NCBI RefSeq assembly: GCF_003018255.1
Contig: NZ_CP027440.1
Length of the DNA stretch: 64,000 nt
From: Escherichia coli
GTDB taxonomy: Bacteria > Pseudomonadota > Gammaproteobacteria > Enterobacterales > Enterobacteriaceae
Reading direction: 5' to 3' (one strand)
The notes below the pieces were generated by a model, which ran no database searches, was not told the origin of the DNA, and was given only the letters and a program-made list of their open reading frames with translations. A program made the translations under genes and the position numbers. Positions 3,572 to 55,999 of this stretch are shown here, in pieces (within the stretch, counting starts at the first letter, position 1; each line of letters begins with the position of its first letter).

Positions 3572-6500
3572 ATGGTTTACTCCTATACCGAGAAAAAACG
3601 TATTCGTAAGGATTTTGGTAAACGTCCACAAGTTCTGGATGTACCTTATCTCCTTTCTATCCAGCTTGACTCGTTTCAGAAATTTATCGAGCAAGATCCT
3701 GAAGGGCAGTATGGTCTGGAAGCTGCTTTCCGTTCCGTATTCCCGATTCAGAGCTACAGCGGTAATTCCGAGCTGCAATACGTCAGCTACCGCCTTGGCG
3801 AACCGGTGTTTGACGTCCAGGAATGTCAAATCCGTGGCGTGACCTATTCCGCACCGCTGCGCGTTAAACTGCGTCTGGTGATCTATGAGCGCGAAGCGCC
3901 GGAAGGCACCGTAAAAGACATTAAAGAACAAGAAGTCTACATGGGCGAAATTCCGCTCATGACAGACAACGGTACCTTTGTTATCAACGGTACTGAGCGT
4001 GTTATCGTTTCCCAGCTGCACCGTAGTCCGGGCGTCTTCTTTGACTCCGACAAAGGTAAAACCCACTCTTCGGGTAAAGTGCTGTATAACGCGCGCATCA
4101 TCCCTTACCGTGGTTCCTGGCTTGACTTCGAATTCGATCCGAAGGACAACCTGTTCGTACGTATCGACCGTCGCCGTAAACTGCCTGCGACCATCATTCT
4201 GCGCGCCCTGAACTACACCACAGAGCAGATCCTCGACCTGTTCTTTGAAAAAGTTATCTTTGAAATCCGTGATAACAAGCTGCAGATGGAACTGGTGCCG
4301 GAACGCCTGCGTGGTGAAACCGCATCTTTTGACATCGAAGCTAACGGTAAAGTGTACGTAGAAAAAGGCCGCCGTATCACTGCGCGCCACATTCGCCAGC
4401 TGGAAAAAGACGACGTCAAACTGATCGAAGTCCCGGTTGAGTACATCGCAGGTAAAGTGGTTGCTAAAGACTATATTGATGAGTCTACCGGCGAGCTGAT
4501 CTGTGCTGCGAACATGGAGCTGAGCCTGGATCTGCTGGCTAAGCTGAGCCAGTCTGGTCACAAGCGTATCGAAACGCTGTTCACCAACGATCTGGATCAC
4601 GGCCCATATATCTCTGAAACCTTACGTGTCGACCCAACTAACGACCGTCTGAGCGCACTGGTAGAAATCTACCGCATGATGCGCCCTGGCGAGCCGCCGA
4701 CTCGTGAAGCAGCTGAAAGCCTGTTCGAGAACCTGTTCTTCTCCGAAGACCGTTATGACTTGTCTGCGGTTGGTCGTATGAAGTTCAACCGTTCTCTGCT
4801 GCGCGAAGAAATCGAAGGTTCCGGTATTCTGAGCAAAGACGACATCATTGATGTTATGAAAAAGCTCATCGATATCCGTAACGGTAAAGGCGAAGTCGAT
4901 GATATCGACCACCTCGGCAACCGTCGTATCCGTTCCGTTGGCGAAATGGCGGAAAACCAGTTCCGCGTTGGCCTGGTACGTGTAGAGCGTGCGGTGAAAG
5001 AGCGTCTGTCTCTGGGCGATCTGGATACCCTGATGCCTCAGGATATGATCAACGCCAAGCCGATTTCCGCAGCAGTGAAAGAGTTCTTCGGTTCCAGCCA
5101 GCTGTCTCAGTTTATGGACCAGAACAACCCGCTGTCTGAGATTACGCACAAACGTCGTATCTCCGCACTCGGCCCAGGCGGTCTGACCCGTGAACGTGCA
5201 GGCTTCGAAGTTCGAGACGTACACCCGACTCACTACGGTCGCGTATGTCCAATAGAAACCCCTGAAGGTCCGAACATCGGTCTGATCAACTCTCTGTCCG
5301 TGTACGCACAGACTAACGAATACGGCTTCCTTGAGACTCCGTATCGTAAAGTGACCGACGGTGTTGTAACTGACGAAATTCACTACCTATCTGCTATCGA
5401 AGAAGGCAACTACGTTATCGCCCAGGCGAACTCCAACCTGGATGAAGAAGGCCACTTCGTAGAAGACCTGGTAACCTGCCGTAGCAAAGGCGAATCCAGC
5501 TTGTTCAGCCGCGACCAGGTTGACTACATGGACGTATCCACCCAGCAGGTGGTATCCGTCGGTGCGTCCCTGATCCCGTTCCTGGAACACGATGACGCCA
5601 ACCGTGCATTGATGGGTGCGAACATGCAACGTCAGGCCGTTCCGACTCTGCGCGCTGACAAGCCGCTGGTTGGTACTGGTATGGAACGTGCTGTTGCCGT
5701 TGACTCCGGTGTAACTGCGGTAGCTAAACGTGGTGGTGTCGTTCAGTACGTGGATGCTTCCCGTATCGTTATCAAAGTTAACGAAGACGAGATGTATCCG
5801 GGTGAAGCAGGTATCGATATCTACAACCTGACCAAATACACCCGTTCTAACCAGAACACCTGTATCAACCAGATGCCGTGTGTGTCTCTGGGTGAACCGG
5901 TTGAACGTGGCGACGTGCTGGCAGACGGTCCGTCCACCGACCTCGGTGAACTGGCGCTTGGTCAGAACATGCGCGTAGCGTTCATGCCGTGGAATGGTTA
6001 CAACTTCGAAGACTCCATCCTCGTATCCGAGCGTGTTGTTCAGGAAGACCGTTTCACCACCATCCACATTCAGGAACTGGCGTGTGTGTCCCGTGACACC
6101 AAGCTGGGGCCAGAAGAGATCACCGCTGACATCCCGAACGTGGGTGAAGCTGCGCTCTCCAAACTGGATGAATCCGGTATCGTTTACATTGGTGCGGAAG
6201 TGACCGGTGGCGACATTCTGGTTGGTAAGGTTACGCCGAAAGGTGAAACTCAGCTGACCCCAGAAGAAAAACTGCTGCGTGCGATCTTCGGTGAGAAAGC
6301 GTCTGACGTTAAAGACTCTTCTCTGCGCGTACCAAACGGTGTATCCGGTACGGTTATCGACGTTCAGGTCTTTACTCGCGATGGCGTAGAAAAAGACAAA
6401 CGTGCGCTGGAAATCGAAGAAATGCAGCTCAAACAGGCGAAGAAAGACCTGTCTGAAGAACTGCAGATCCTCGAAGCGGGTCTGTTCAGCCGTATCCGTG

Positions 6501-21964: not shown

Positions 21965-22666
21965 GTGGCAGTGAACAGTTTTAACGAAGGGGTGGTTTCA
22001 CCCCTTTTGTCTTTCTGGCGTCGATCATTGATGCTGGCTGGCGCTCTGTTTCTCACTGCTTGTAGTCACAACTCTTCACTTCCTCCCTTTACCGCCAGTG
22101 GATTTGCTGAAGACCAGGGCGCGGTACGCATCTGGCGAAAAGACAGCGGCGATAATGTGCATCTTCTTGCCGTGTTTAGCCCGTGGCGCAGTGGCGATAC
22201 GACGACGCGAGAGTATCGCTGGCAGGGCGATAACCTCACGCTCATCAATATCAATGTTTACAGCAAACCCCCGGTGAATATTCGCGCGCGTTTTGACGAT
22301 CGCGGCGATCTGAGCTTTATGCAACGCGAATCCGATGGGGAAAAGCAGCAGCTTTCTAACGACCAAATCGATTTATACCGTTATCGTGCTGATCAGATCC
22401 GCCAGATTAGCGATGCCTTACGTCAGGGGAGAGTCGTGCTGCGCCAGGGGCGCTGGCATGCGATGGAGCAGACTGTGACCACCTGCGAAGGGCAAACCAT
22501 TAAACCTGATTTAGATTCGCAGGCGATAGCGCATATCGAGCGCCGCCAGAGCCGCTCTTCTGTTGATGTCAGCGTGGCATGGCTGGAAGCGCCCGAAGGT
22601 TCGCAATTACTGTTGGTGGCAAACTCTGATTTCTGTCGCTGGCAACCCAACGAGAAAACGTTCTGA
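21965..22666 (+). CDS. yjaH: Putative lipoprotein YjaH (start codon uncertain; GTG at 21965 or 21971)
   Basis: ORF with signal peptide and lipobox (LFLTAC) at the position of yjaH. Confidence 0.85.
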   Translation: MAVNSFNEGVVSPLLSFWRRSLMLAGALFLTACSHNSSLPPFTASGFAEDQGAVRIWRKDSGDNVHLLAVFSPWRSGDTTTREYRWQGDNLTLININVYSKPPVNIRARFDDRGDLSFMQRESDGEKQQLSNDQIDLYRYRADQIRQISDALRQGRVVLRQGRWHAMEQTVTTCEGQTIKPDLDSQAIAHIERRQSRSSVDVSVAWLEAPEGSQLLLVANSDFCRWQPNEKTF

Positions 22667-22667
22667 T

Positions 22668-23087
22668 TTACCAGTGGTCCATACCCATATGACCGCCACC
22701 ACCGCAGCCGCCGTAACCCATTCCGGTACCGCGCGGAATACCCGCTTCAGCCATCGCAATATCTCGTTTCACCCGTAACTCATCTAACGACTGACGCAAA
22801 TTCTCCATCTCTTTGGCGACCGCGTTAATTTTGCTGCTATCCGGTGGGTTCGCGGCTAACAGGGCATTGTATTCATAACGCTTTGTTACCAGTTGCTGTT
22901 GCAGTGCGCTGCTTTGAGCGTAAAAGTCATTATGGATTTTCTGCCACGCTGTCTGTTGTTCGCTGGTCAAAGGCGCGGCATTTTGCTGCCACATACCGTG
23001 TCCGCCGTGAGCAAATGCCGATGTCGATCCCATCGCCATTGCTGAAAGCGCCATCATTACCAGGGCAATTTTCGTGTTCCGTTTCAT
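22668..23087 (-). CDS. zraP: Zinc-resistance-associated periplasmic protein ZraP
   Basis: 139-aa product from MKRNTKIALVMMALS (signal peptide) with Gly/His/Met-rich C-terminus; internal start of the 186-aa ORF in the track. Confidence 0.9.
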   Translation of the reverse strand: MKRNTKIALVMMALSAMAMGSTSAFAHGGHGMWQQNAAPLTSEQQTAWQKIHNDFYAQSSALQQQLVTKRYEYNALLAANPPDSSKINAVAKEMENLRQSLDELRVKRDIAMAEAGIPRGTGMGYGGCGGGGHMGMDHW

Positions 23088-23324: not shown

Positions 23325-24701
23325 ATGCGTTTTATGCAACGTTCTAAAGACTCCTTAGCTAAATGGTTAAGCGCGATCCTCCCCGTGGTCATTGTTGGGC
23401 TGGTGGGGCTGTTTGCGGTGACAGTGATTCGCGATTACGGGCGCGAGACTGCAGCCGCCAGACAAACGCTGCTGGAAAAAGGCAGTGTACTTATCCGTGC
23501 TCTCGAATCCGGCTCGCGCGTCGGCATGGGGATGCGCATGCATCATGCGCAGCAGCAGGCATTACTGGAAGAAATGGCCGGGCAGCCTGGTGTACGTTGG
23601 TTTGCGGTCACGGATGAACAAGGAACAATCGTGATGCATAGCAACTCCGGCATGGTGGGAAAACAGCTTTATTCCCCGCAGGAAATGCAGCAGTTACATC
23701 CGGGAGATGAAGAAGCGTGGCGGCGGATCGATAGCGCAGACGGCGAGCCTGTTCTGGAAATTTATCGCCAGTTTCAACCGATGTTTGCTGCTGGAATGCA
23801 CCGGATGCGCCATATGCAGCAGTATGCCGCGACACCACAAGCAATTTTTATCGCTTTCGACGCCAGTAACATTGTGAGTGCCGAAGATCGTGAGCAGAGA
23901 AACACCCTGATTATCCTCTTCGCCCTGGCGACGGTCTTGCTGGCAAGCGTGTTGTCATTCTTCTGGTATCGCCGATATCTGCGCTCGGGCCAGCTGTTGC
24001 AGGATGAAATGAAGCGCAAAGAGAAGCTGGTGGCACTGGGGCATCTTGCGGCAGGCGTTGCCCACGAAATCCGTAACCCACTTTCCTCGATTAAAGGGCT
24101 GGCGAAATACTTTGCCGAACGCGCGCCAGCAGGGGGAGAAGCGCATCAACTGGCGCAGGTGATGGCGAAAGAAGCCGACCGTTTAAACCGCGTGGTAAGC
24201 GAGTTGCTGGAACTGGTTAAGCCAACGCATCTGGCTTTGCAGGCGGTGGATCTCAACACGCTGATTAACCACTCATTACAGCTGGTAAGCCAGGATGCAA
24301 ACAGCCGGGAGATCCAGTTACGCTTTACCGCCAACGACACATTACCGGAAATTCAGGCCGATCCGGACAGGCTGACTCAGGTCCTGTTGAATCTCTATCT
24401 CAATGCTATTCAGGCGATTGGTCAGCATGGCGTGATTAGCGTGACGGCCAGCGAAAGCGGCACGGGTGTGAAAATCAGCGTTACCGACAGCGGTAAGGGA
24501 ATTGCGGCGGATCAGCTTGAAGCCATCTTCACCCCGTATTTCACCACGAAGGCCGAAGGCACCGGACTGGGGCTGGCGGTCGTGCATAATATTGTTGAAC
24601 AACACGGTGGTACAATTCAGGTCGCAAGCCAGGTGGGAAAAGGCGCAACGTTCACCCTCTGGCTTCCGGTCACTATTACGCGTAAGGACCCACAAGGATG
24701 A
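23325..24701 (+). CDS. zraS: Sensor histidine kinase ZraS
   Basis: 458-aa ORF with H-box (HEIRNPLSSIKG) and ATPase motifs; overlaps zraR start by 4 bp. Confidence 0.93.
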   Translation: MRFMQRSKDSLAKWLSAILPVVIVGLVGLFAVTVIRDYGRETAAARQTLLEKGSVLIRALESGSRVGMGMRMHHAQQQALLEEMAGQPGVRWFAVTDEQGTIVMHSNSGMVGKQLYSPQEMQQLHPGDEEAWRRIDSADGEPVLEIYRQFQPMFAAGMHRMRHMQQYAATPQAIFIAFDASNIVSAEDREQRNTLIILFALATVLLASVLSFFWYRRYLRSGQLLQDEMKRKEKLVALGHLAAGVAHEIRNPLSSIKGLAKYFAERAPAGGEAHQLAQVMAKEADRLNRVVSELLELVKPTHLALQAVDLNTLINHSLQLVSQDANSREIQLRFTANDTLPEIQADPDRLTQVLLNLYLNAIQAIGQHGVISVTASESGTGVKISVTDSGKGIAADQLEAIFTPYFTTKAEGTGLGLAVVHNIVEQHGGTIQVASQVGKGATFTLWLPVTITRKDPQG

Positions 24702-26023
24702 CGCACGATAATATCGATATTCTGGTGGTGGATGATGACATTAGCCACTGCACTATTTTGCAGGCTTTGCTGCGCGGCTGGGGCTATAACGTCGCGCTGG
24801 CGAACAGCGGGCGACAGGCGCTGGAGCAGGTGCGGGAACAGGTTTTTGATCTTGTGCTTTGCGATGTGCGAATGGCGGAGATGGACGGCATTGCCACGCT
24901 AAAAGAGATCAAAGCGCTAAATCCGGCGATTCCGGTACTGATTATGACCGCATACTCCAGCGTCGAGACGGCGGTAGAGGCACTGAAAACCGGGGCGCTG
25001 GATTATCTCATCAAGCCGCTGGATTTCGATAACCTGCAGGCGACGCTGGAAAAGGCGCTCGCACATACGCACAGTGTTGACGCTGAAACGCCTGCGGTGT
25101 CTGCCAGCCAGTTCGGTATGGTAGGTAAAAGCCCGGCGATGCAACACCTGCTCAGTGAAATCGCCCTCGTCGCGCCATCGGAAGCCACAGTGCTGATCCA
25201 CGGCGATTCCGGCACCGGTAAAGAGCTGGTCGCAAGGGCGATTCACGCCAGTAGCGCACGGAGTGAAAAACCACTGGTAACGCTCAACTGTGCGGCACTC
25301 AACGAATCCTTGCTGGAATCTGAATTGTTCGGTCACGAAAAAGGGGCGTTTACCGGAGCCGATAAACGCCGGGAAGGGCGCTTTGTTGAGGCGGACGGCG
25401 GCACGCTGTTTCTCGATGAAATTGGCGATATCTCGCCGATGATGCAGGTTCGTCTGCTGCGTGCGATTCAGGAGCGCGAAGTTCAGCGTGTCGGCAGCAA
25501 CCAGACCATCTCGGTTGATGTCCGGCTGATTGCGGCGACTCATCGCGATCTTGCCGCAGAGGTGAATGCCGGGCGTTTTCGCCAGGATCTCTACTATCGC
25601 CTGAACGTGGTGGCGATTGAAGTTCCGTCGCTGCGTCAGCGGCGGGAAGATATTCCTCTGCTGGCAAACCATTTTCTTCAGCGCTTTGCCGAGCGTAATC
25701 GTAAGGCGGTAAAAGGTTTTACGCCCCAGGCGATGGATCTGCTGATTCACTACGACTGGCCGGGAAATATTCGTGAACTGGAAAACACGGTGGAACGGGC
25801 GGTGGTGCTGCTGACCGGGGAATATATTTCCGAACGCGAGCTGCCGCTGGCGATTGCGAGTACGCCGATCCCGCTGGTACAAAGTCAGGATATTCAGCCG
25901 CTGGTGGAAGTCGAAAAAGAGGTGATTCTGGCGGCGCTGGAGAAAACGGGCGGCAACAAAACCGAAGCCGCCCGCCAGTTAGGGATCACGCGCAAAACGC
26001 TATTGGCAAAACTGTCGCGTTAG
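24698..26023 (+). CDS. zraR: Sigma-54-dependent response regulator ZraR
   Basis: 441-aa ORF with receiver domain, AAA+ Walker A (GDSGTGKE), GAFTGA motif and C-terminal HTH. Confidence 0.95.
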
Positions 26024-27309
26024 TTCTGCTCGCGTTCGATAGCGCGCCAGCCGATATCTTTCCGGCAGAAGCAGTCGTCCCAATGGATATCGGTCATTAA
26101 GGCATAAGCGCGTTTCTGCGCTTCTGCCACGGTATGACCCAGCGCGGTAACGCACAGTACGCGCCCGCCGCTGGTCACTACCTGCTCGTCATCCGCTAGT
26201 TTCGTGCCCGCGTGGAACACTTTGCCGTCTGCCACTTCTTCCAGCGGCAGGCCGTGGATCACATCGCCGGTGCGGTAATCGCCCGGATATCCACCCGCAG
26301 CCATCACCACGCCGAGAGAAGCGCGTTCATCCCACTCGGACGTTTTCTCGTCCAGCTTGCCTTCACAGGCCGCCAGGCAGAGCTCAACCAGATCGGACTT
26401 CATGCGCAGCATAATCGGCTGGGTTTCTGGATCGCCAAAGCGGCAGTTAAATTCAATAACCTTCGGATTGCCCTGTTTGTCGATCATCAGGCCCGCGTAG
26501 AGAAAACCAGTGTAGGTGTTGCCTTCTGCCGCCATGCCTTTCACGGTTGGCCAGATGATTCGTTCCATCGTGCGCTGATGAACTTCATCGGTTACTACCG
26601 GCGCGGGGGAGTAAGCGCCCATCCCGCCCGTGTTTGGTCCGGTATCTTTATCGCCTACGCGTTTGTGATCCTGGCTGGTAGCCATCGGCAGCACATGCTC
26701 GCCGTCCACCATCACGATAAAGCTCGCTTCTTCGCCATCGAGGAACTCTTCGATAACGATGCGATGACCCGCGTCGCCAAACGCGTTGCCCGCCAGCATA
26801 TCGTGAACAGCTGCTTCAGCTTCTTCCAGCGTCATCGCCACGATAACGCCTTTCCCGGCTGCCAGACCGTCAGCTTTAATGACGATTGGCGCGCCTTTCT
26901 CACGCAGATACGCCAGCGCAGGTTCTACCTCGGTGAAGTTCTGGTATTCCGCTGTGGGAATGTTATGGCGGGCCAGAAAGTCTTTGGTGAATGCTTTAGA
27001 ACCTTCCAGTTGTGCGGCACCTGCGGTTGGGCCGAAGATTTTCAGCCCGGCGGCGCGGAAGGTATCGACTACGCCTTTCACCAGCGGCGCTTCCGGGCCG
27101 ACGATGGTTAGATCGATCTTTTCGTTTTGCGCGAAATCCAGCAGCGCCGGGATATCGGTTACGCCGATAGCGACGTTTTGCAGTGTGGGTTCCAGCGCAG
27201 TGCCTGCATTACCCGGAGCAACAAAAACAGTTTCAACCAGCGGCGACTGGGCCGCTTTCCAGGCCAGCGCGTGCTCGCGCCCGCCGTTACCAATCACTAA
27301 TACTTTCAT
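26020..27309 (-). CDS. purD: Phosphoribosylamine--glycine ligase
   Basis: 429-aa product from MKVLVIGNGGREHALAWK; internal start of the 433-aa ORF in the track. Confidence 0.95.
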   Translation of the reverse strand: MKVLVIGNGGREHALAWKAAQSPLVETVFVAPGNAGTALEPTLQNVAIGVTDIPALLDFAQNEKIDLTIVGPEAPLVKGVVDTFRAAGLKIFGPTAGAAQLEGSKAFTKDFLARHNIPTAEYQNFTEVEPALAYLREKGAPIVIKADGLAAGKGVIVAMTLEEAEAAVHDMLAGNAFGDAGHRIVIEEFLDGEEASFIVMVDGEHVLPMATSQDHKRVGDKDTGPNTGGMGAYSPAPVVTDEVHQRTMERIIWPTVKGMAAEGNTYTGFLYAGLMIDKQGNPKVIEFNCRFGDPETQPIMLRMKSDLVELCLAACEGKLDEKTSEWDERASLGVVMAAGGYPGDYRTGDVIHGLPLEEVADGKVFHAGTKLADDEQVVTSGGRVLCVTALGHTVAEAQKRAYALMTDIHWDDCFCRKDIGWRAIEREQN

Positions 27310-27320
27310 CTGTCGCTCCA

Positions 27321-28910
27321 TTAATGGCGGAAGTGGCGCATGTCGGTGAAGAGCATCGCAATACCGTGCTCGTCGGCGGCGGCAATCACTTCGTCATCAC
27401 GGATAGAACCGCCAGGCTGGATTACGCAGGTCACACCCGCAGCGGCGGCGGCATCAATACCGTCGCGGAACGGGAAGAACGCGTCAGAAGCCATCGAGGA
27501 ACCTTTCACTTCCAGGCCTTCATCGGCCGCTTTAATACCGGCGATTTTTGCGGAGTACACGCGGCTCATCTGGCCCGCGCCAATGCCGATGGTCATATTG
27601 TTTTTGGCATAGACAATGGCGTTGGATTTCACGAACTTCGCCACTTTCCAGCAGAACAGCGCATCACGCAGTTCCTGTTCGGTCGGCTGACGTTTGGTGA
27701 CGACGCGCAGTTCTTCTGCACCGACCATGCCCAGGTCGCGATCCTGAACCAGCAGACCGCCGTTAACACGTTTGAAATCAAGACCCGGAACACGCTCGCC
27801 CCACTGACCGCAGGTCAGGACGCGTACGTTCTGTTTGGCGGCGGTGATTTTCAGGGCTTCTTCGCTGGCGGACGGCGCAATAATCACTTCAACAAACTGA
27901 CGAGAAATGATGGCCTGCGCGGTTTCCGCATCCAGCTCGCGGTTAAAGGCGATAATGCCGCCGAATGCGGAGGTCGGGTCGGTTTTGTACGCGCGATCGT
28001 AAGCATCAAGAATGGAATTGCTGATAGCCACGCCGCACGGGTTGGCGTGCTTCACAATCACACATGCTGGCTCGGCGAACTCTTTCACGCACTCCAGCGC
28101 CGCATCGGTATCGGCGATGTTGTTATAAGAGAGGGCCTTACCCTGAACCTGGGTTGCGGTGGCAACAGAGGCTTCTTTCACGTTCTCTTCTATATAGAAG
28201 GCAGCCTGCTGGTGGCTGTTCTCGCCGTAACGCATATCCTGCTTCTTAATGAAGTTCAGGTTCAGCGTGCGTGGGAAGCGACCGGCGGCTTCTTTGCTTT
28301 CACCGTGGTAAGCCGGAACCATGCTGCCGAAGTAGTTGGCAATCATGCTGTCGTAGGCGGCGGTATGTTCAAAGGCTTTGATAGCGAGATCGAAACGGGT
28401 TGCAAGCAGAAGCGATCCTTCGTTGGCATCCATCTCTTTAATGATGGCGTCGTAGTCGCTGCTCTTCACCACGATGGCGACATCTTTATGGTTCTTGGCG
28501 GCAGAGCGCACCATCGTCGGGCCGCCGATATCGATGTTCTCAACCGCATCTTCCAGCGAGCAACCTTCACGGGCAACGGTCTGGGCGAACGGATACAGGT
28601 TAACAACCACCATATCGATAGGCTGGATCTGATGTTCTTCCATAATGGCATCGTCCTGGCCGCGACGGCCCAGAATGCCACCATGTACTTTCGGATGCAG
28701 GGTCTTCACGCGTCCATCCATCATCTCCGGGAAACCGGTGTAATCGGAAACTTCGGTTACCGGCAGACCTTTTTCTGCTAACAGACGGGCTGTGCCCCCT
28801 GTAGACAGCAGCTCCACACCGCGTGCGGAAAGTGCCTGGGCGAATTCGACGATACCGGCTTTGTCAGAAACACTGAGCAGAGCGCGGCGGACTGGACGAC
28901 GTTGTTGCAT
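27321..28910 (-). CDS. purH: Bifunctional AICAR transformylase / IMP cyclohydrolase
   Basis: 529-aa ORF recognised as PurH. Confidence 0.97.
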
Positions 28911-55126: not shown

Positions 55127-55999
55127 ATGCTGCCCGACTCATCAGTCCGTTTAAATAAATACATCAGCGAAAGCGGAATTTGCTCACGCCGCGAAGCGGA
55201 TCGCTATATCGAGCAAGGCAATGTGTTCCTTAATGGCAAGCGAGCCACCATTGGCGATCAGGTGAAACCCGGCGACGTTGTGAAAGTAAATGGTCAGTTG
55301 ATTGAACCTCGGGAAGCCGAAGATTTGGTACTTATCGCCCTGAACAAGCCCGTCGGTATTGTCAGCACCACCGAAGATGGCGAGCGCGATAACATTGTCG
55401 ATTTCGTTAACCACAGCAAACGCGTATTCCCGATTGGCCGCCTGGATAAAGACTCCCAGGGGCTGATTTTCCTCACCAATCACGGCGATCTGGTGAATAA
55501 GATCCTCCGTGCGGGTAACGATCATGAGAAAGAGTATCTGGTGACGGTCGATAAACCGATTACCGATGAATTTATTCGTGGTATGGGGGCGGGGGTGCCA
55601 ATCCTCGGGACAGTGACTAAAAAGTGCAAAGTCAAAAAAGAAGCGCCATTTGTCTTCCGCATTACCCTGGTGCAGGGGCTGAACCGTCAGATCCGTCGCA
55701 TGTGCGAGCACTTTGGTTACGAAGTGAAAAAGCTGGAACGTACGCGCATTATGAACGTCAGTTTAAGCGGCATTCCGCTGGGGGAGTGGCGCGATTTAAC
55801 CGACGATGAGTTAATCGACCTCTTTAAGCTCATCGAAAATTCCTCTTCCGAGGCAAAACCTAAAGCGAAGGCCAAACCGAAAACGGTAGGCATCAAACGT
55901 CCAGTCGTTAAGATGGAAAAAACGGCGGAAAAAGGCGGTCGCCCGGCGTCCAACGGTAAGCGTTTTACCTCGCCGGGGCGCAAAAAGAAGGGGCGTTAA
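55127..55999 (+). CDS. rluF: 23S rRNA pseudouridine synthase F
   Basis: 290-aa ORF with S4 domain and RsuA-type catalytic region; Lys-rich C-terminus. Confidence 0.93.

What the first reader, a model, noticed from the sequence alone, without database searches (positions are those of the whole stretch)
26015..26025. zraR and purD converge with overlapping stop codons
The plus-strand zraR stop TAG (26021-26023) and the minus-strand purD stop (TAA, reverse complement of 26020-26022) share nucleotides within the tetranucleotide TTAG, leaving no room for a terminator for either transcript. Transcription of each operon must read into the other, giving potential antisense interference between purHD and zraSR.
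Basis: seen in the sequence. Interest (0 to 1): 0.15.

Follow-up and report, generated by a model that had tools for sequence, protein, structure and literature searches.

The report
zraR–purD overlapping stops, embedded terminator
Two E. coli genes on opposite strands really do end on the same four bases, but this is a common, already annotated arrangement, and the purine operon still has a normal terminator, hidden inside the coding sequence of its neighbour.

Summary
zraR (+, 24698-26023, stop TAG 26021-26023) and purD (-, 26020-27309, stop TAA = complement of 26020-26022) share the tetranucleotide TTAG. RefSeq annotates it this way, including in K-12 MG1655. It is present in 5420 of 5426 complete E. 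coli genomes and in 15 of 16 junction sequences from at least six genera; K. aerogenes overlaps by 11 nt. It belongs to a described class: 4-nt stop-stop overlaps, 58 convergent overlaps in E. coli. The pair is already listed as a convergent "excludon" (ExcludonFinder, 2025).

There is no intergenic room, but purHD does have an intrinsic terminator. It is an 8-bp GC stem (25974-25947, minus strand) followed by UUUUCUCC, lying 45-82 nt past the purD stop inside ZraR codons 417-426. A published purD 3' terminus (K-12 4204560 = window 25938) falls on its U-tract. The stem is identical in all 16 orthologues. Its five four-fold synonymous sites are all invariant, against 11 of 138 elsewhere (p≈1e-5). 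zraSR transcription ends inside purD at a published Rho-dependent region about 266 nt past the zraR stop. The transcripts therefore overlap by a bounded 86 to about 350 nt. Functional antisense interference has not been tested. This is ordinary and already known.

The parts
24698..26023 (+). zraR CDS (sigma-54-dependent response regulator, 441 aa), stop TAG at 26021-26023
   Evidence: ORF list. NCBIfam NF007689 match 1-441 of 441, 994 bits. RefSeq annotation.
26020..27309 (-). purD CDS (phosphoribosylamine-glycine ligase, 429 aa), stop TAA = complement of 26020-26022
   Evidence: ORF list. TIGR00877 match, 633 bits. RefSeq annotation.
27321..28910 (-). purH CDS, first gene of the purHD operon whose transcript ends inside zraR
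26020..26023 (.). TTAG tetranucleotide shared by the two CDSs; the stop codons share 26021-26022
   Evidence: A 4-nt overlap is kept in 15 of 16 orthologous junctions (TTAA in one); K. aerogenes has an 11-nt overlap.
25947..25974 (-). Stem-loop of the purHD intrinsic terminator: CGGGCGGC (25974-25967), a 12-nt loop, GCCGCCCG (25954-25947), ΔG about -18.5 kcal/mol. It is encoded on the opposite strand by ZraR codons T417 G418 G419 N K T E A424 A425 R426 in the HTH_8 domain.
   Evidence: Folding. Stem identical in 16 of 16 orthologues. Five of 5 four-fold sites in the stem are invariant against 11 of 138 elsewhere, Fisher p = 9e-6, and the two arms are the two longest invariant nucleotide runs in zraR. 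None of 2000 synonymous recodings is as stable.
25938..25946 (-). U-tract (UUUUCUCCA) and the mapped purHD RNA 3' end. The published K-12 peak 4204559-4204568, dominant position 4204560, corresponds to window 25937-25946, dominant 25938.
   Evidence: TRS Supplementary Data 2 and 4, entry 'purD, Primary, 3' UTR 83'. Coordinate transfer by a colinear alignment to K-12.
26100..26360 (+). C-rich, G-poor stretch of the zraSR read-through RNA (antisense to the purD 3' end). It contains the position equivalent to the published Rho termination region, K-12 4204911 = window ~26289.
   Evidence: Adams et al. 2021 Supplementary file 2: Rho score 4.28, p = 5.7e-8. C 35-40%, G 22-29% in 80-nt windows. No intrinsic-terminator-like site on the + strand just after the stop.
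25345..25370 (-). Second terminator-like hairpin (11-bp stem, then CCUUUUUC) deeper inside zraR. It could be a back-up for purHD read-through, but this is unsupported.
   Evidence: Pattern scan. No 3' terminus is reported there in the TRS tables.

Best explanation
This is an ordinary 4-nt tail-to-tail gene overlap at the junction of the zraSR and purHD operons of E. coli. Each operon still terminates, but inside the other's coding sequence. RNA polymerase transcribing purHD passes the purD stop and runs 44 nt into antisense zraR. It then transcribes an 8-bp G+C stem-loop followed by UUUUCUCC and releases the RNA 82 nt past the purD stop (shown: a mapped 3' end on the U-tract; inferred: the mechanism is intrinsic termination). 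The hairpin is written in the synonymous positions of ZraR codons [10 protein letters not shown], and those positions are frozen across genera. That indicates selection on the terminator in addition to selection on the protein. It probably keeps the strongly expressed purine operon from sending antisense transcription through the weakly expressed zraSR genes. zraSR transcription has no hairpin/U-tract signal after its stop. Once translation ends at the TAG, the untranslated C-rich RNA is available to Rho, which terminates a few hundred nt into purD antisense (shown: a published bicyclomycin-sensitive region; inferred: the C-rich stretch acts as the Rho loading site). The mature transcripts therefore overlap by about 86 nt at least and up to about 350 nt. 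This is why RNA-seq surveys list the pair as a convergent excludon. Any regulatory consequence of that overlap is unproven.
For: Sequence and annotation of the overlap. Hairpin plus U-tract on the minus strand, stem starting 45 nt after the purD stop, ΔG -18 to -20 kcal/mol. It is one of only 29 such sites in 128 kb of both strands, so about a 2% chance in any given 100 nt. Published purD primary 3' terminus at K-12 4204560, 3' UTR 83 nt, significant in three libraries, which maps to window 25938 on the U-tract. Stem identical in 16 of 16 junctions from at least six genera while neighbouring synonymous sites vary. Five of 5 four-fold sites in the stem are invariant against 11 of 138 elsewhere (p = 9e-6), and against 2 of 21 for the same codons elsewhere (p = 3e-4); the arms are the two longest invariant nucleotide runs in zraR. 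None of 2000 synonymous recodings matches the native stability. The paralogues atoC, glnG and glrR lack the hairpin. Among 24 relatives examined without zraR beside purD, most carry an ordinary hairpin/U-tract terminator in the DNA just after purD, so purHD is normally ended intrinsically. Rho termination region at K-12 4204911 (+), antisense to purD. C>G composition there. The pair is listed as a convergent excludon. The general class is described, including terminators inside the partner CDS in 21 of 58 E. coli convergent overlaps.
Against: The curated Term-seq 3'-end list of Adams et al. has no entry for purD or zraR, so the 3' end rests on one published data set. The U-tract in E. coli is short (4 U, then CUCC), and the loop is long (12 nt). 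The simple consensus scan, which allows loops of 8 nt at most, missed the site. The 93-nt region as a whole does not fold better than shuffles (z = -1.0). The orthologue sequences are phylogenetically related and include three E. coli. The site-versus-site comparison controls for this only partly. Salmonella and K. pneumoniae were not retrieved. The resolution of the Rho region is coarse (800-nt comparison windows). Termination efficiency was not measured.
Confidence: 0.8

Rival explanations
1. One reading: neither operon has a terminator, so each transcript reads far into the other operon and the two interfere by antisense pairing or polymerase collision.
For: There is no intergenic DNA. No intrinsic-terminator-like site lies on the + strand after zraR. 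The pair is listed among RNA-seq-defined convergent excludons.
Against: A hairpin/U-tract terminator with a mapped 3' end lies 82 nt past the purD stop. A Rho-dependent region bounds zraSR read-through at about 266 nt. With a 4-nt CDS overlap, any co-expression satisfies the excludon criterion trivially. No reciprocal expression data exist for this pair.
Confidence: 0.1
2. The 3' end at 25938 is not a termination site. It is the resting point of 3'-to-5' exonucleases that trim a longer, Rho-terminated purHD transcript back to a stable hairpin, so the hairpin stabilises the RNA rather than terminating it.
For: Such trimming of Rho-dependent transcripts to stem-loops is well established for E. 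coli (general knowledge; the Dar and Sorek 2018 paper was located but its tables were not available). The E. coli U-tract is modest, and Adams et al. did not call a Term-seq end here.
Against: The dominant 3' end lies 8-9 nt past the stem, on a U-rich tract. That is the geometry of intrinsic termination, whereas trimmed ends usually abut the stem. Most orthologues have a longer U-tract of UUUUUUC. No bicyclomycin-sensitive region antisense to zraR or zraS is listed.
Confidence: 0.12
3. The frozen synonymous sites reflect a constraint on the zraR strand, such as zraR mRNA structure, translation speed through the HTH, or codon preference, and not purHD termination.
For: The complementary hairpin also forms in zraR mRNA. 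GGC and GCC are common codons.
Against: The same codons elsewhere in zraR are invariant in only 2 of 21 cases. Recoding with local codon usage never reproduces the hairpin strength. The flanking A-run, which gives a U-tract only on the purD strand, is kept or lengthened in 15 of 16 sequences. The mapped RNA end is on the purD strand. Translating ribosomes would unwind the zraR-strand hairpin.
Confidence: 0.05
4. The overlap is a selected regulatory device (a true excludon). Induction of zraSR by zinc or envelope stress lowers purHD expression, or high purHD expression lowers ZraR, through RNase III cleavage of the 86-350-bp duplex or through head-on polymerase collisions.
For: The 4-nt overlap and gene order are conserved across at least six genera. 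The pair is in the excludome list. Collision-driven termination at convergent pairs is a described mechanism (preprint 10.1101/2022.10.23.513370, listed).
Against: No expression data link the two operons; only three papers in the library mention both genes and none tests this. The conserved terminator limits the overlap rather than extending it. Many Enterobacteriaceae lack zraPSR at this site and have purD next to yjaH, so purHD does not depend on it. Tight convergent junctions are common (3 of 7 in this window).
Confidence: 0.1

Closest known systems
4-nt convergent (tail-to-tail) stop-stop overlaps in prokaryotes (tetramers CTAA, TTAA, CTAG, TTAG; Lillo & Krakauer 2007, PMC2174442)
   Same: This is exactly that arrangement. 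Two stop codons on opposite strands sit inside TTAG, with the modal overlap length of 4. It is one of the roughly 58 convergent overlaps counted in E. coli.
   Different: Nothing structural differs. This report adds that the overlap is conserved across at least six enterobacterial genera, even where the PurD C-terminus changes length.
Rho-independent terminators located inside the coding sequence of a convergently overlapping gene (21 of 58 E. coli convergent overlaps in PMC2174442; 'overlapping terminators' in 146 of 165 convergent excludons in PMC12288877)
   Same: A GC-rich hairpin plus U-tract for one operon lies within the partner's CDS, and the mapped RNA end falls on the U-tract.
   Different: Here the double constraint is documented. 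The stem is built from the Gly-Gly and Ala-Ala codons of a conserved HTH motif, and those synonymous sites are invariant. I do not know whether this particular terminator was among those counted in either paper.
Convergent excludons (Lasa and colleagues; ExcludonFinder 2025)
   Same: zraR-purD is listed by name in the E. coli MG1655 excludome.
   Different: The definition used there is overlap of RNA-seq coverage only. Mutually exclusive expression and RNase III processing have not been shown for this pair.
Rho-dependent termination of untranslated or antisense RNA after a stop codon (Adams et al. 2021, PMC7815308)
   Same: A bicyclomycin-sensitive region lies on the + strand antisense to purD, downstream of the zraR stop, in a C-rich, G-poor stretch.
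   Different: The exact 3' end and the Rho loading site are not mapped, and the signal is of moderate strength (Rho score 4.3).
Bidirectional intrinsic terminators between convergent genes (Ju et al. 2019 SEnd-seq, recalled from memory; the Wang et al. collision preprint is listed)
   Same: A single hairpin is placed between converging transcription units.
   Different: The hairpin here has a U-tract only on the purD strand. On the zraR strand it lies inside the translated CDS and is followed by CCAGUUAGGG, so it is unidirectional.

Membership tests
4-nt convergent stop-stop gene overlap | Two protein-coding genes on opposite strands whose stop codons both lie within one tetranucleotide (CTAA, TTAA, CTAG or TTAG) | tested here: met
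   TTAG at 26020-26023, with TAG on the + strand and TAA on the - strand.
4-nt convergent stop-stop gene overlap | Both gene ends are genuine, meaning full-length homology with no earlier in-frame stop | tested here: met
   ZraR matches 1-441 of 441 of NF007689. PurD reaches the last position of TIGR00877. The same ends are annotated in RefSeq and both C-termini are conserved in orthologues.
Intrinsic (Rho-independent) terminator | G+C-rich stem-loop in the nascent RNA | tested here: met
   An 8-bp, all-G/C stem CGGGCGGC/GCCGCCCG, ΔG about -18.5 kcal/mol, window 25974-25947 on the minus strand.
Intrinsic (Rho-independent) terminator | U-rich tract immediately 3' of the stem | tested here: met
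   UUUUCUCC in Escherichia and UUUUUUC in most other genera. It is weakened to UUCUUUC in K. grimontii. The tract is shorter than in textbook terminators.
Intrinsic (Rho-independent) terminator | RNA 3' end mapped about 7-9 nt after the stem in vivo | tested here: met
   Published peak at K-12 4204559-4204568, dominant 4204560 = window 25938, which is 9 nt after the last stem pair. This comes from one data set and is not in the Adams et al. Term-seq list.
Intrinsic (Rho-independent) terminator | Termination by RNAP alone, independent of Rho | not testable with these tools
   This needs in vitro transcription or Term-seq with and without bicyclomycin at this site. The only indirect hint is that no bicyclomycin-sensitive region antisense to zraR is listed.
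Bidirectional intrinsic terminator | Hairpin flanked by an A-tract and a U-tract so that both strands see a U-tract after the stem | tested here: not met
   On the + strand the stem is followed by CCAGUUAGGG and lies inside the translated zraR CDS.
Rho-dependent terminator (zraSR side) | Read-through increases when Rho is inhibited with bicyclomycin | tested here: met
   Taken from published data, not measured here. Upstream/downstream coverage was 74/17 without BCM and 172/169 with BCM, Rho score 4.28, p = 5.7e-8 at 4204911 (+).
Rho-dependent terminator (zraSR side) | C-rich, G-poor untranslated RNA upstream of the release sites | tested here: met
   C 35-40% and G 22-29% at 26100-26360 on the + strand, downstream of the zraR stop. 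This is suggestive and not specific.
Convergent excludon | Overlapping transcripts from neighbouring convergent genes detected in RNA-seq | tested here: met
   Listed by name in Table 1 of PMC12288877, which requires detection in at least 50% of 58 samples. The 4-nt CDS overlap makes the criterion nearly automatic.
Convergent excludon | Mutually exclusive expression and/or RNase III processing of the duplex | not tested
   No data for this pair were found in the paper's text, and its supplementary tables are not held.

The most novel reading that the evidence does not exclude
The conserved 4-nt overlap, together with the terminator written into the ZraR helix-turn-helix codons, could be a selected coupling or insulating device. 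Under this reading the purHD terminator strength, set by synonymous sites of zraR, tunes how much antisense RNA and how many head-on polymerases reach zraSR. Conversely, zinc or envelope-stress induction of zraSR would send Rho-limited antisense transcription into purD, linking metal or envelope stress to purine synthesis.
Probability: 0.1. Interest if true: 0.4.

Novelty: already known. Interest (0 to 1): 0.15.

Why it matters
It matters little for discovery. The overlap is in every RefSeq annotation of E. coli, belongs to a class described since the early 2000s, and the pair is already catalogued as an excludon. The useful correction is conceptual: "no intergenic space" does not mean "no terminator". 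Here the purine operon's terminator is superimposed on codons of the neighbouring regulator and is kept by strong selection on synonymous sites. That gives a clean, experimentally tractable example of dual coding (a protein and an RNA signal on opposite strands). It is also a caution for synonymous recoding or deletion of zraR, for example in Keio-type knock-outs or genome refactoring, because such changes could alter purHD 3'-end formation.

Tried and rejected
1. The simple consensus terminator scan found nothing next to the junction. Its loop limit of 8 nt or less hides the 12-nt-loop hairpin, and a looser custom scan found it.
2. Folding the whole 93-nt purD 3' region against shuffles was uninformative (z = -1.0). 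The 120 nt after the zraR stop fold somewhat better than shuffles (z = -2.4), but there is no U-tract, so I did not treat that region as a terminator.
3. The first ZraR protein search returned only Escherichia sequences. I re-queried with the Kluyvera orthologue to reach other genera.
They remain unexamined.
5. My first two codon-alignment attempts were flawed, by a truncated E. albertii ORF and then by a fixed-length extraction. Only one search is used.
6. I looked for further 3'-end evidence. Adams et al. Term-seq has no purD or zraR end. The TRS tables show no other termini in zraS, zraR or the purD antisense region. Supplements of four other papers are not held.
7. The second hairpin at 25370-25345 was considered as a back-up terminator, but there is no RNA-end support.
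8. The bidirectional-terminator idea was rejected because the zraR strand has no U-tract after the stem.
9. E. coli ZraR length variants (437-469 aa) were checked. Most are internal indels with the same C-terminus, and only rare singletons lose the stop.
Full report
**What is there.** The window is E. coli chromosome. It is 100% identical over 1.3 kb to strain DETEC-S792 and 95-99% identical to nearly all other complete genomes. At 26015-26028 the + strand reads TCG CGT TAG TTC TG.

- The 441-codon ORF 24698-26023 ends ...LLAKLSR* with TAG at 26021-26023. It matches the NCBIfam ZraR equivalog over its full length (1-441 of 441, 994 bits).
- The minus-strand ORF 26020-27321 (annotated start 27309) ends ...IEREQN*, with TAA as the complement of 26020-26022. 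It matches the PurD model to its last position.
- Neither gene has an earlier in-frame stop.
- RefSeq annotates the same ends in the identical strain, in strain 2A and in K-12 MG1655 (zraR 4203320..4204645, purD 4204642..4205931).

**Is it more than chance, and is it unusual?** It is stable but not unusual.

- The 95-nt junction region occurs in 5420 of 5426 complete E. coli genomes.
- I retrieved 16 zraR-purD junctions: the window, K-12, a third E. coli, E. albertii, Citrobacter werkmanii, two Kluyvera, Klebsiella spallanzanii, K. grimontii and K. aerogenes, Phytobacter diazotrophicus, Kosakonia arachidis and four others.
- Fifteen have a 4-nt stop-stop overlap (TTAG, or TTAA in K. spallanzanii), even where the PurD C-terminus differs (…EQN, …EQNR, …EQNS, …EQR, …EQH). 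K. aerogenes has a frame change near the PurD C-terminus that lengthens the overlap to 11 nt.
- The arrangement is a textbook class. Lillo and Krakauer (PMC2174442) name CTAA, TTAA, CTAG and TTAG as the four tetramers that end two genes on opposite strands. They find 4 nt to be the modal overlap length and count 58 convergent overlaps in E. coli.
- In this window alone, 3 of the 7 convergent junctions have a spacing of 1 nt or less: yjaH/zraP 1 nt, zraR/purD -4, rluF/yjbD 0.

**Where the purHD transcript ends.** The consensus scan found no terminator at the junction, but it allows loops of 8 nt at most. A looser scan and folding show the following minus-strand sequence, whose stem starts 45 nt after the purD stop:

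5'-CGGGCGGC-UUCGGUUUUGUU-GCCGCCCG-UUUUCUCC (window 25974-25939)

The stem is 8 bp, all G/C, with ΔG about -18.5 kcal/mol. Sites of this quality occur only 29 times in the 128 kb of both strands of the window, and most of the compact ones sit at known gene ends. The chance of one falling in a given 100 nt is about 2%.

Published 3'-end mapping supports the site. The TRS study (PMC10687069) lists an E. coli K-12 minus-strand 3' terminus with peak 4204559-4204568 and dominant position 4204560. It is significant in three libraries and annotated "purD, Primary, 3' UTR length 83" (definitions). The window and K-12 align colinearly here, with K-12 coordinate = window + 4178622. The dominant end is therefore window 25938, which is 9 nt after the last stem pair and on the U-tract. 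That is the geometry of intrinsic termination.

**The terminator is written in ZraR codons and is under selection.** On the zraR strand the element reads GAG AAA ACG GGC GGC AAC AAA ACC GAA GCC GCC CGC, which encodes [12 protein letters not shown] (residues 415-426, the Fis-type HTH). The two arms are the ACG-GGC-GGC and GCC-GCC-CG codons.

- In all 16 orthologous sequences the stem is identical, while the loop codon for T422 and the flanking codons vary freely. In most genera the U-tract is longer (UUUUUUC).
- I built a codon alignment of 15 full-length zraR genes, 76-96% nucleotide identity to the window. It has 143 four-fold-degenerate sites at invariant residues, of which 16 are invariant.
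- All 5 sites in the stem are invariant, against 11 of 138 elsewhere (Fisher p = 9e-6). For the same codons (GGC, GCC, ACG) elsewhere in the gene, 2 of 21 are invariant (p = 3e-4).
- The two longest runs of invariant nucleotides in the whole gene are the two hairpin arms.
- Recoding residues 408-431 with the window's own codon usage never gave a terminator-like hairpin as stable as the native one (0 of 2000). Only 0.7% reached -18 kcal/mol.
- The E. coli paralogues atoC, glnG and glrR have related HTH peptides but no such hairpin.
- I examined 24 relatives in which zraR is not next to purD (for example Pluralibacter, Shimwellia, Mangrovibacter, Pantoea, Erwinia, Yersinia, Rahnella, Serratia and Providencia). 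In most, purD is followed within about 75 nt by an ordinary hairpin/U-tract terminator. Five showed none under my criteria.

Intrinsic termination is thus the usual way purHD ends. In the zra-carrying lineages that role has moved into the zraR coding sequence.

**Where zraSR transcription ends.** No hairpin/U-tract site follows the zraR stop on the + strand, and TRS reports no + strand terminus there. Adams et al. (PMC7815308, Supplementary file 2) list a Rho termination region at 4204911 (+), "antisense purD". Coverage upstream/downstream was 74/17 without bicyclomycin and 172/169 with it (Rho score 4.28, p = 5.7e-8). That position is 266 nt past the zraR stop, window ~26289. It lies in a stretch where the + strand RNA is C-rich and G-poor (C 35-40%, G 22-29%, 26100-26360). 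The resolution of that assay is coarse.

There is indeed no room between the genes, and the two transcription units must overlap. Both are bounded, however.

- purHD RNA covers the last 86 nt of zraR (25938-26023).
- zraSR RNA runs a few hundred nt into the purD antisense region.
- The potential duplex is therefore about 86-350 bp.
- The pair is already listed by name among 165 convergent excludons of E. coli MG1655 found in at least 50% of 58 RNA-seq samples (PMC12288877, Table 1). The same paper notes that most such pairs have terminators embedded in the neighbour.
- With a 4-nt CDS overlap, that coverage criterion is met almost automatically.
- No paper in the library tests regulation between the two operons.
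- The strong conservation of the embedded terminator argues that selection acts to stop purHD transcription early, insulating zraSR, rather than to promote interference.

**Weak points.**

- The 3' end comes from one data set, and the curated Term-seq list of Adams et al. has no purD or zraR end.
- The E. coli U-tract is short and the loop is long.
- A trimmed Rho-dependent end cannot be formally excluded without bicyclomycin or in vitro data.

**Verdict.** The only mildly new element is the documented double constraint on the ZraR HTH codons that form the purHD terminator.

Noticed in passing
window 22664-22670 (yjaH stop TGA 22664-22666, zraP stop complement at 22668-22670): The other edge of the zraPSR module is equally tight. 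yjaH and zraP converge with a 1-nt gap (TGA t TTA). The pair is also in the excludon list, and Adams et al. report a strong Rho region (score 17) at K-12 4201402, antisense to zraP and 141 nt past the yjaH stop.
   Followed up: partly
window 55986-55991: rluF and yjbD converge with abutting stop codons (TAA immediately followed by TCA), so the spacer is 0 nt. TRS lists a yjbD 'distant primary' 3' end 200 nt inside rluF, and Adams et al. list a Rho region antisense to yjbD. This is the same architecture as zraR/purD.
   Followed up: partly
loci L006, L007, L009, L011-L013, L015 (downstream of purD): In several Enterobacteriaceae (Pseudocitrobacter, Superficieibacter, Enterobacter spp., Leclercia, Escherichia sp. 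ESNIH1) zraPSR is absent. There purD converges directly on yjaH across a 38-97-nt spacer, several of which carry a GC-rich hairpin. zraPSR therefore behaves as a cassette sitting exactly between two stop codons, but whether it was gained or lost was not resolved.
   Followed up: partly
locus L004 (Escherichia albertii NBRC 107761), zraR region: zraR carries a 1-nt indel relative to the window (a frameshift, so either a pseudogene or an assembly error). The TTAG junction and the terminator hairpin are nevertheless intact.
   Followed up: partly
proteins P0010 (469 aa) and P0009 (456 aa), E. coli ZraR variants; window 26021-26023: These are rare stop-loss variants. From the protein sequences I infer that TAG has become CAG in P0010, extending ZraR by 28 aa into purD antisense. 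By inference from the window sequence, the same T-to-C change would turn purD's TAA into TGA, so purD would keep a stop. In P0009 I infer TAG to TAY, giving a 15-aa extension. Both are singletons.
   Followed up: partly
locus L089 (Klebsiella aerogenes) 3822-3832: purD ends ...AREKTNG* instead of ...EREQN*. A frame change near the C-terminus lengthens the overlap with zraR to 11 nt. The terminator hairpin is unchanged.
   Followed up: yes
window 25345-25370 (minus strand): A second terminator-like hairpin lies inside zraR (11-bp stem GGCGTTTATCGG/CCGGTAAACGCC followed by CCTTTTTC), about 650 nt past the purD stop. No mapped RNA end was found for it.
   Followed up: partly
window 24698-24701: zraS and zraR overlap by 4 nt (ATGA, with the zraS stop inside the zraR start). 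This is the usual co-directional arrangement associated with translational coupling.
   Followed up: no
window 23325-24701 compared with K-12 locus L003 2927-4324: zraS is annotated as 1377 nt in the window strain and 1398 nt in K-12, and zraP as 420 nt against 426 nt. This region of the window is only about 96-97% identical to most E. coli, so it is a relatively divergent allele block.
   Followed up: no
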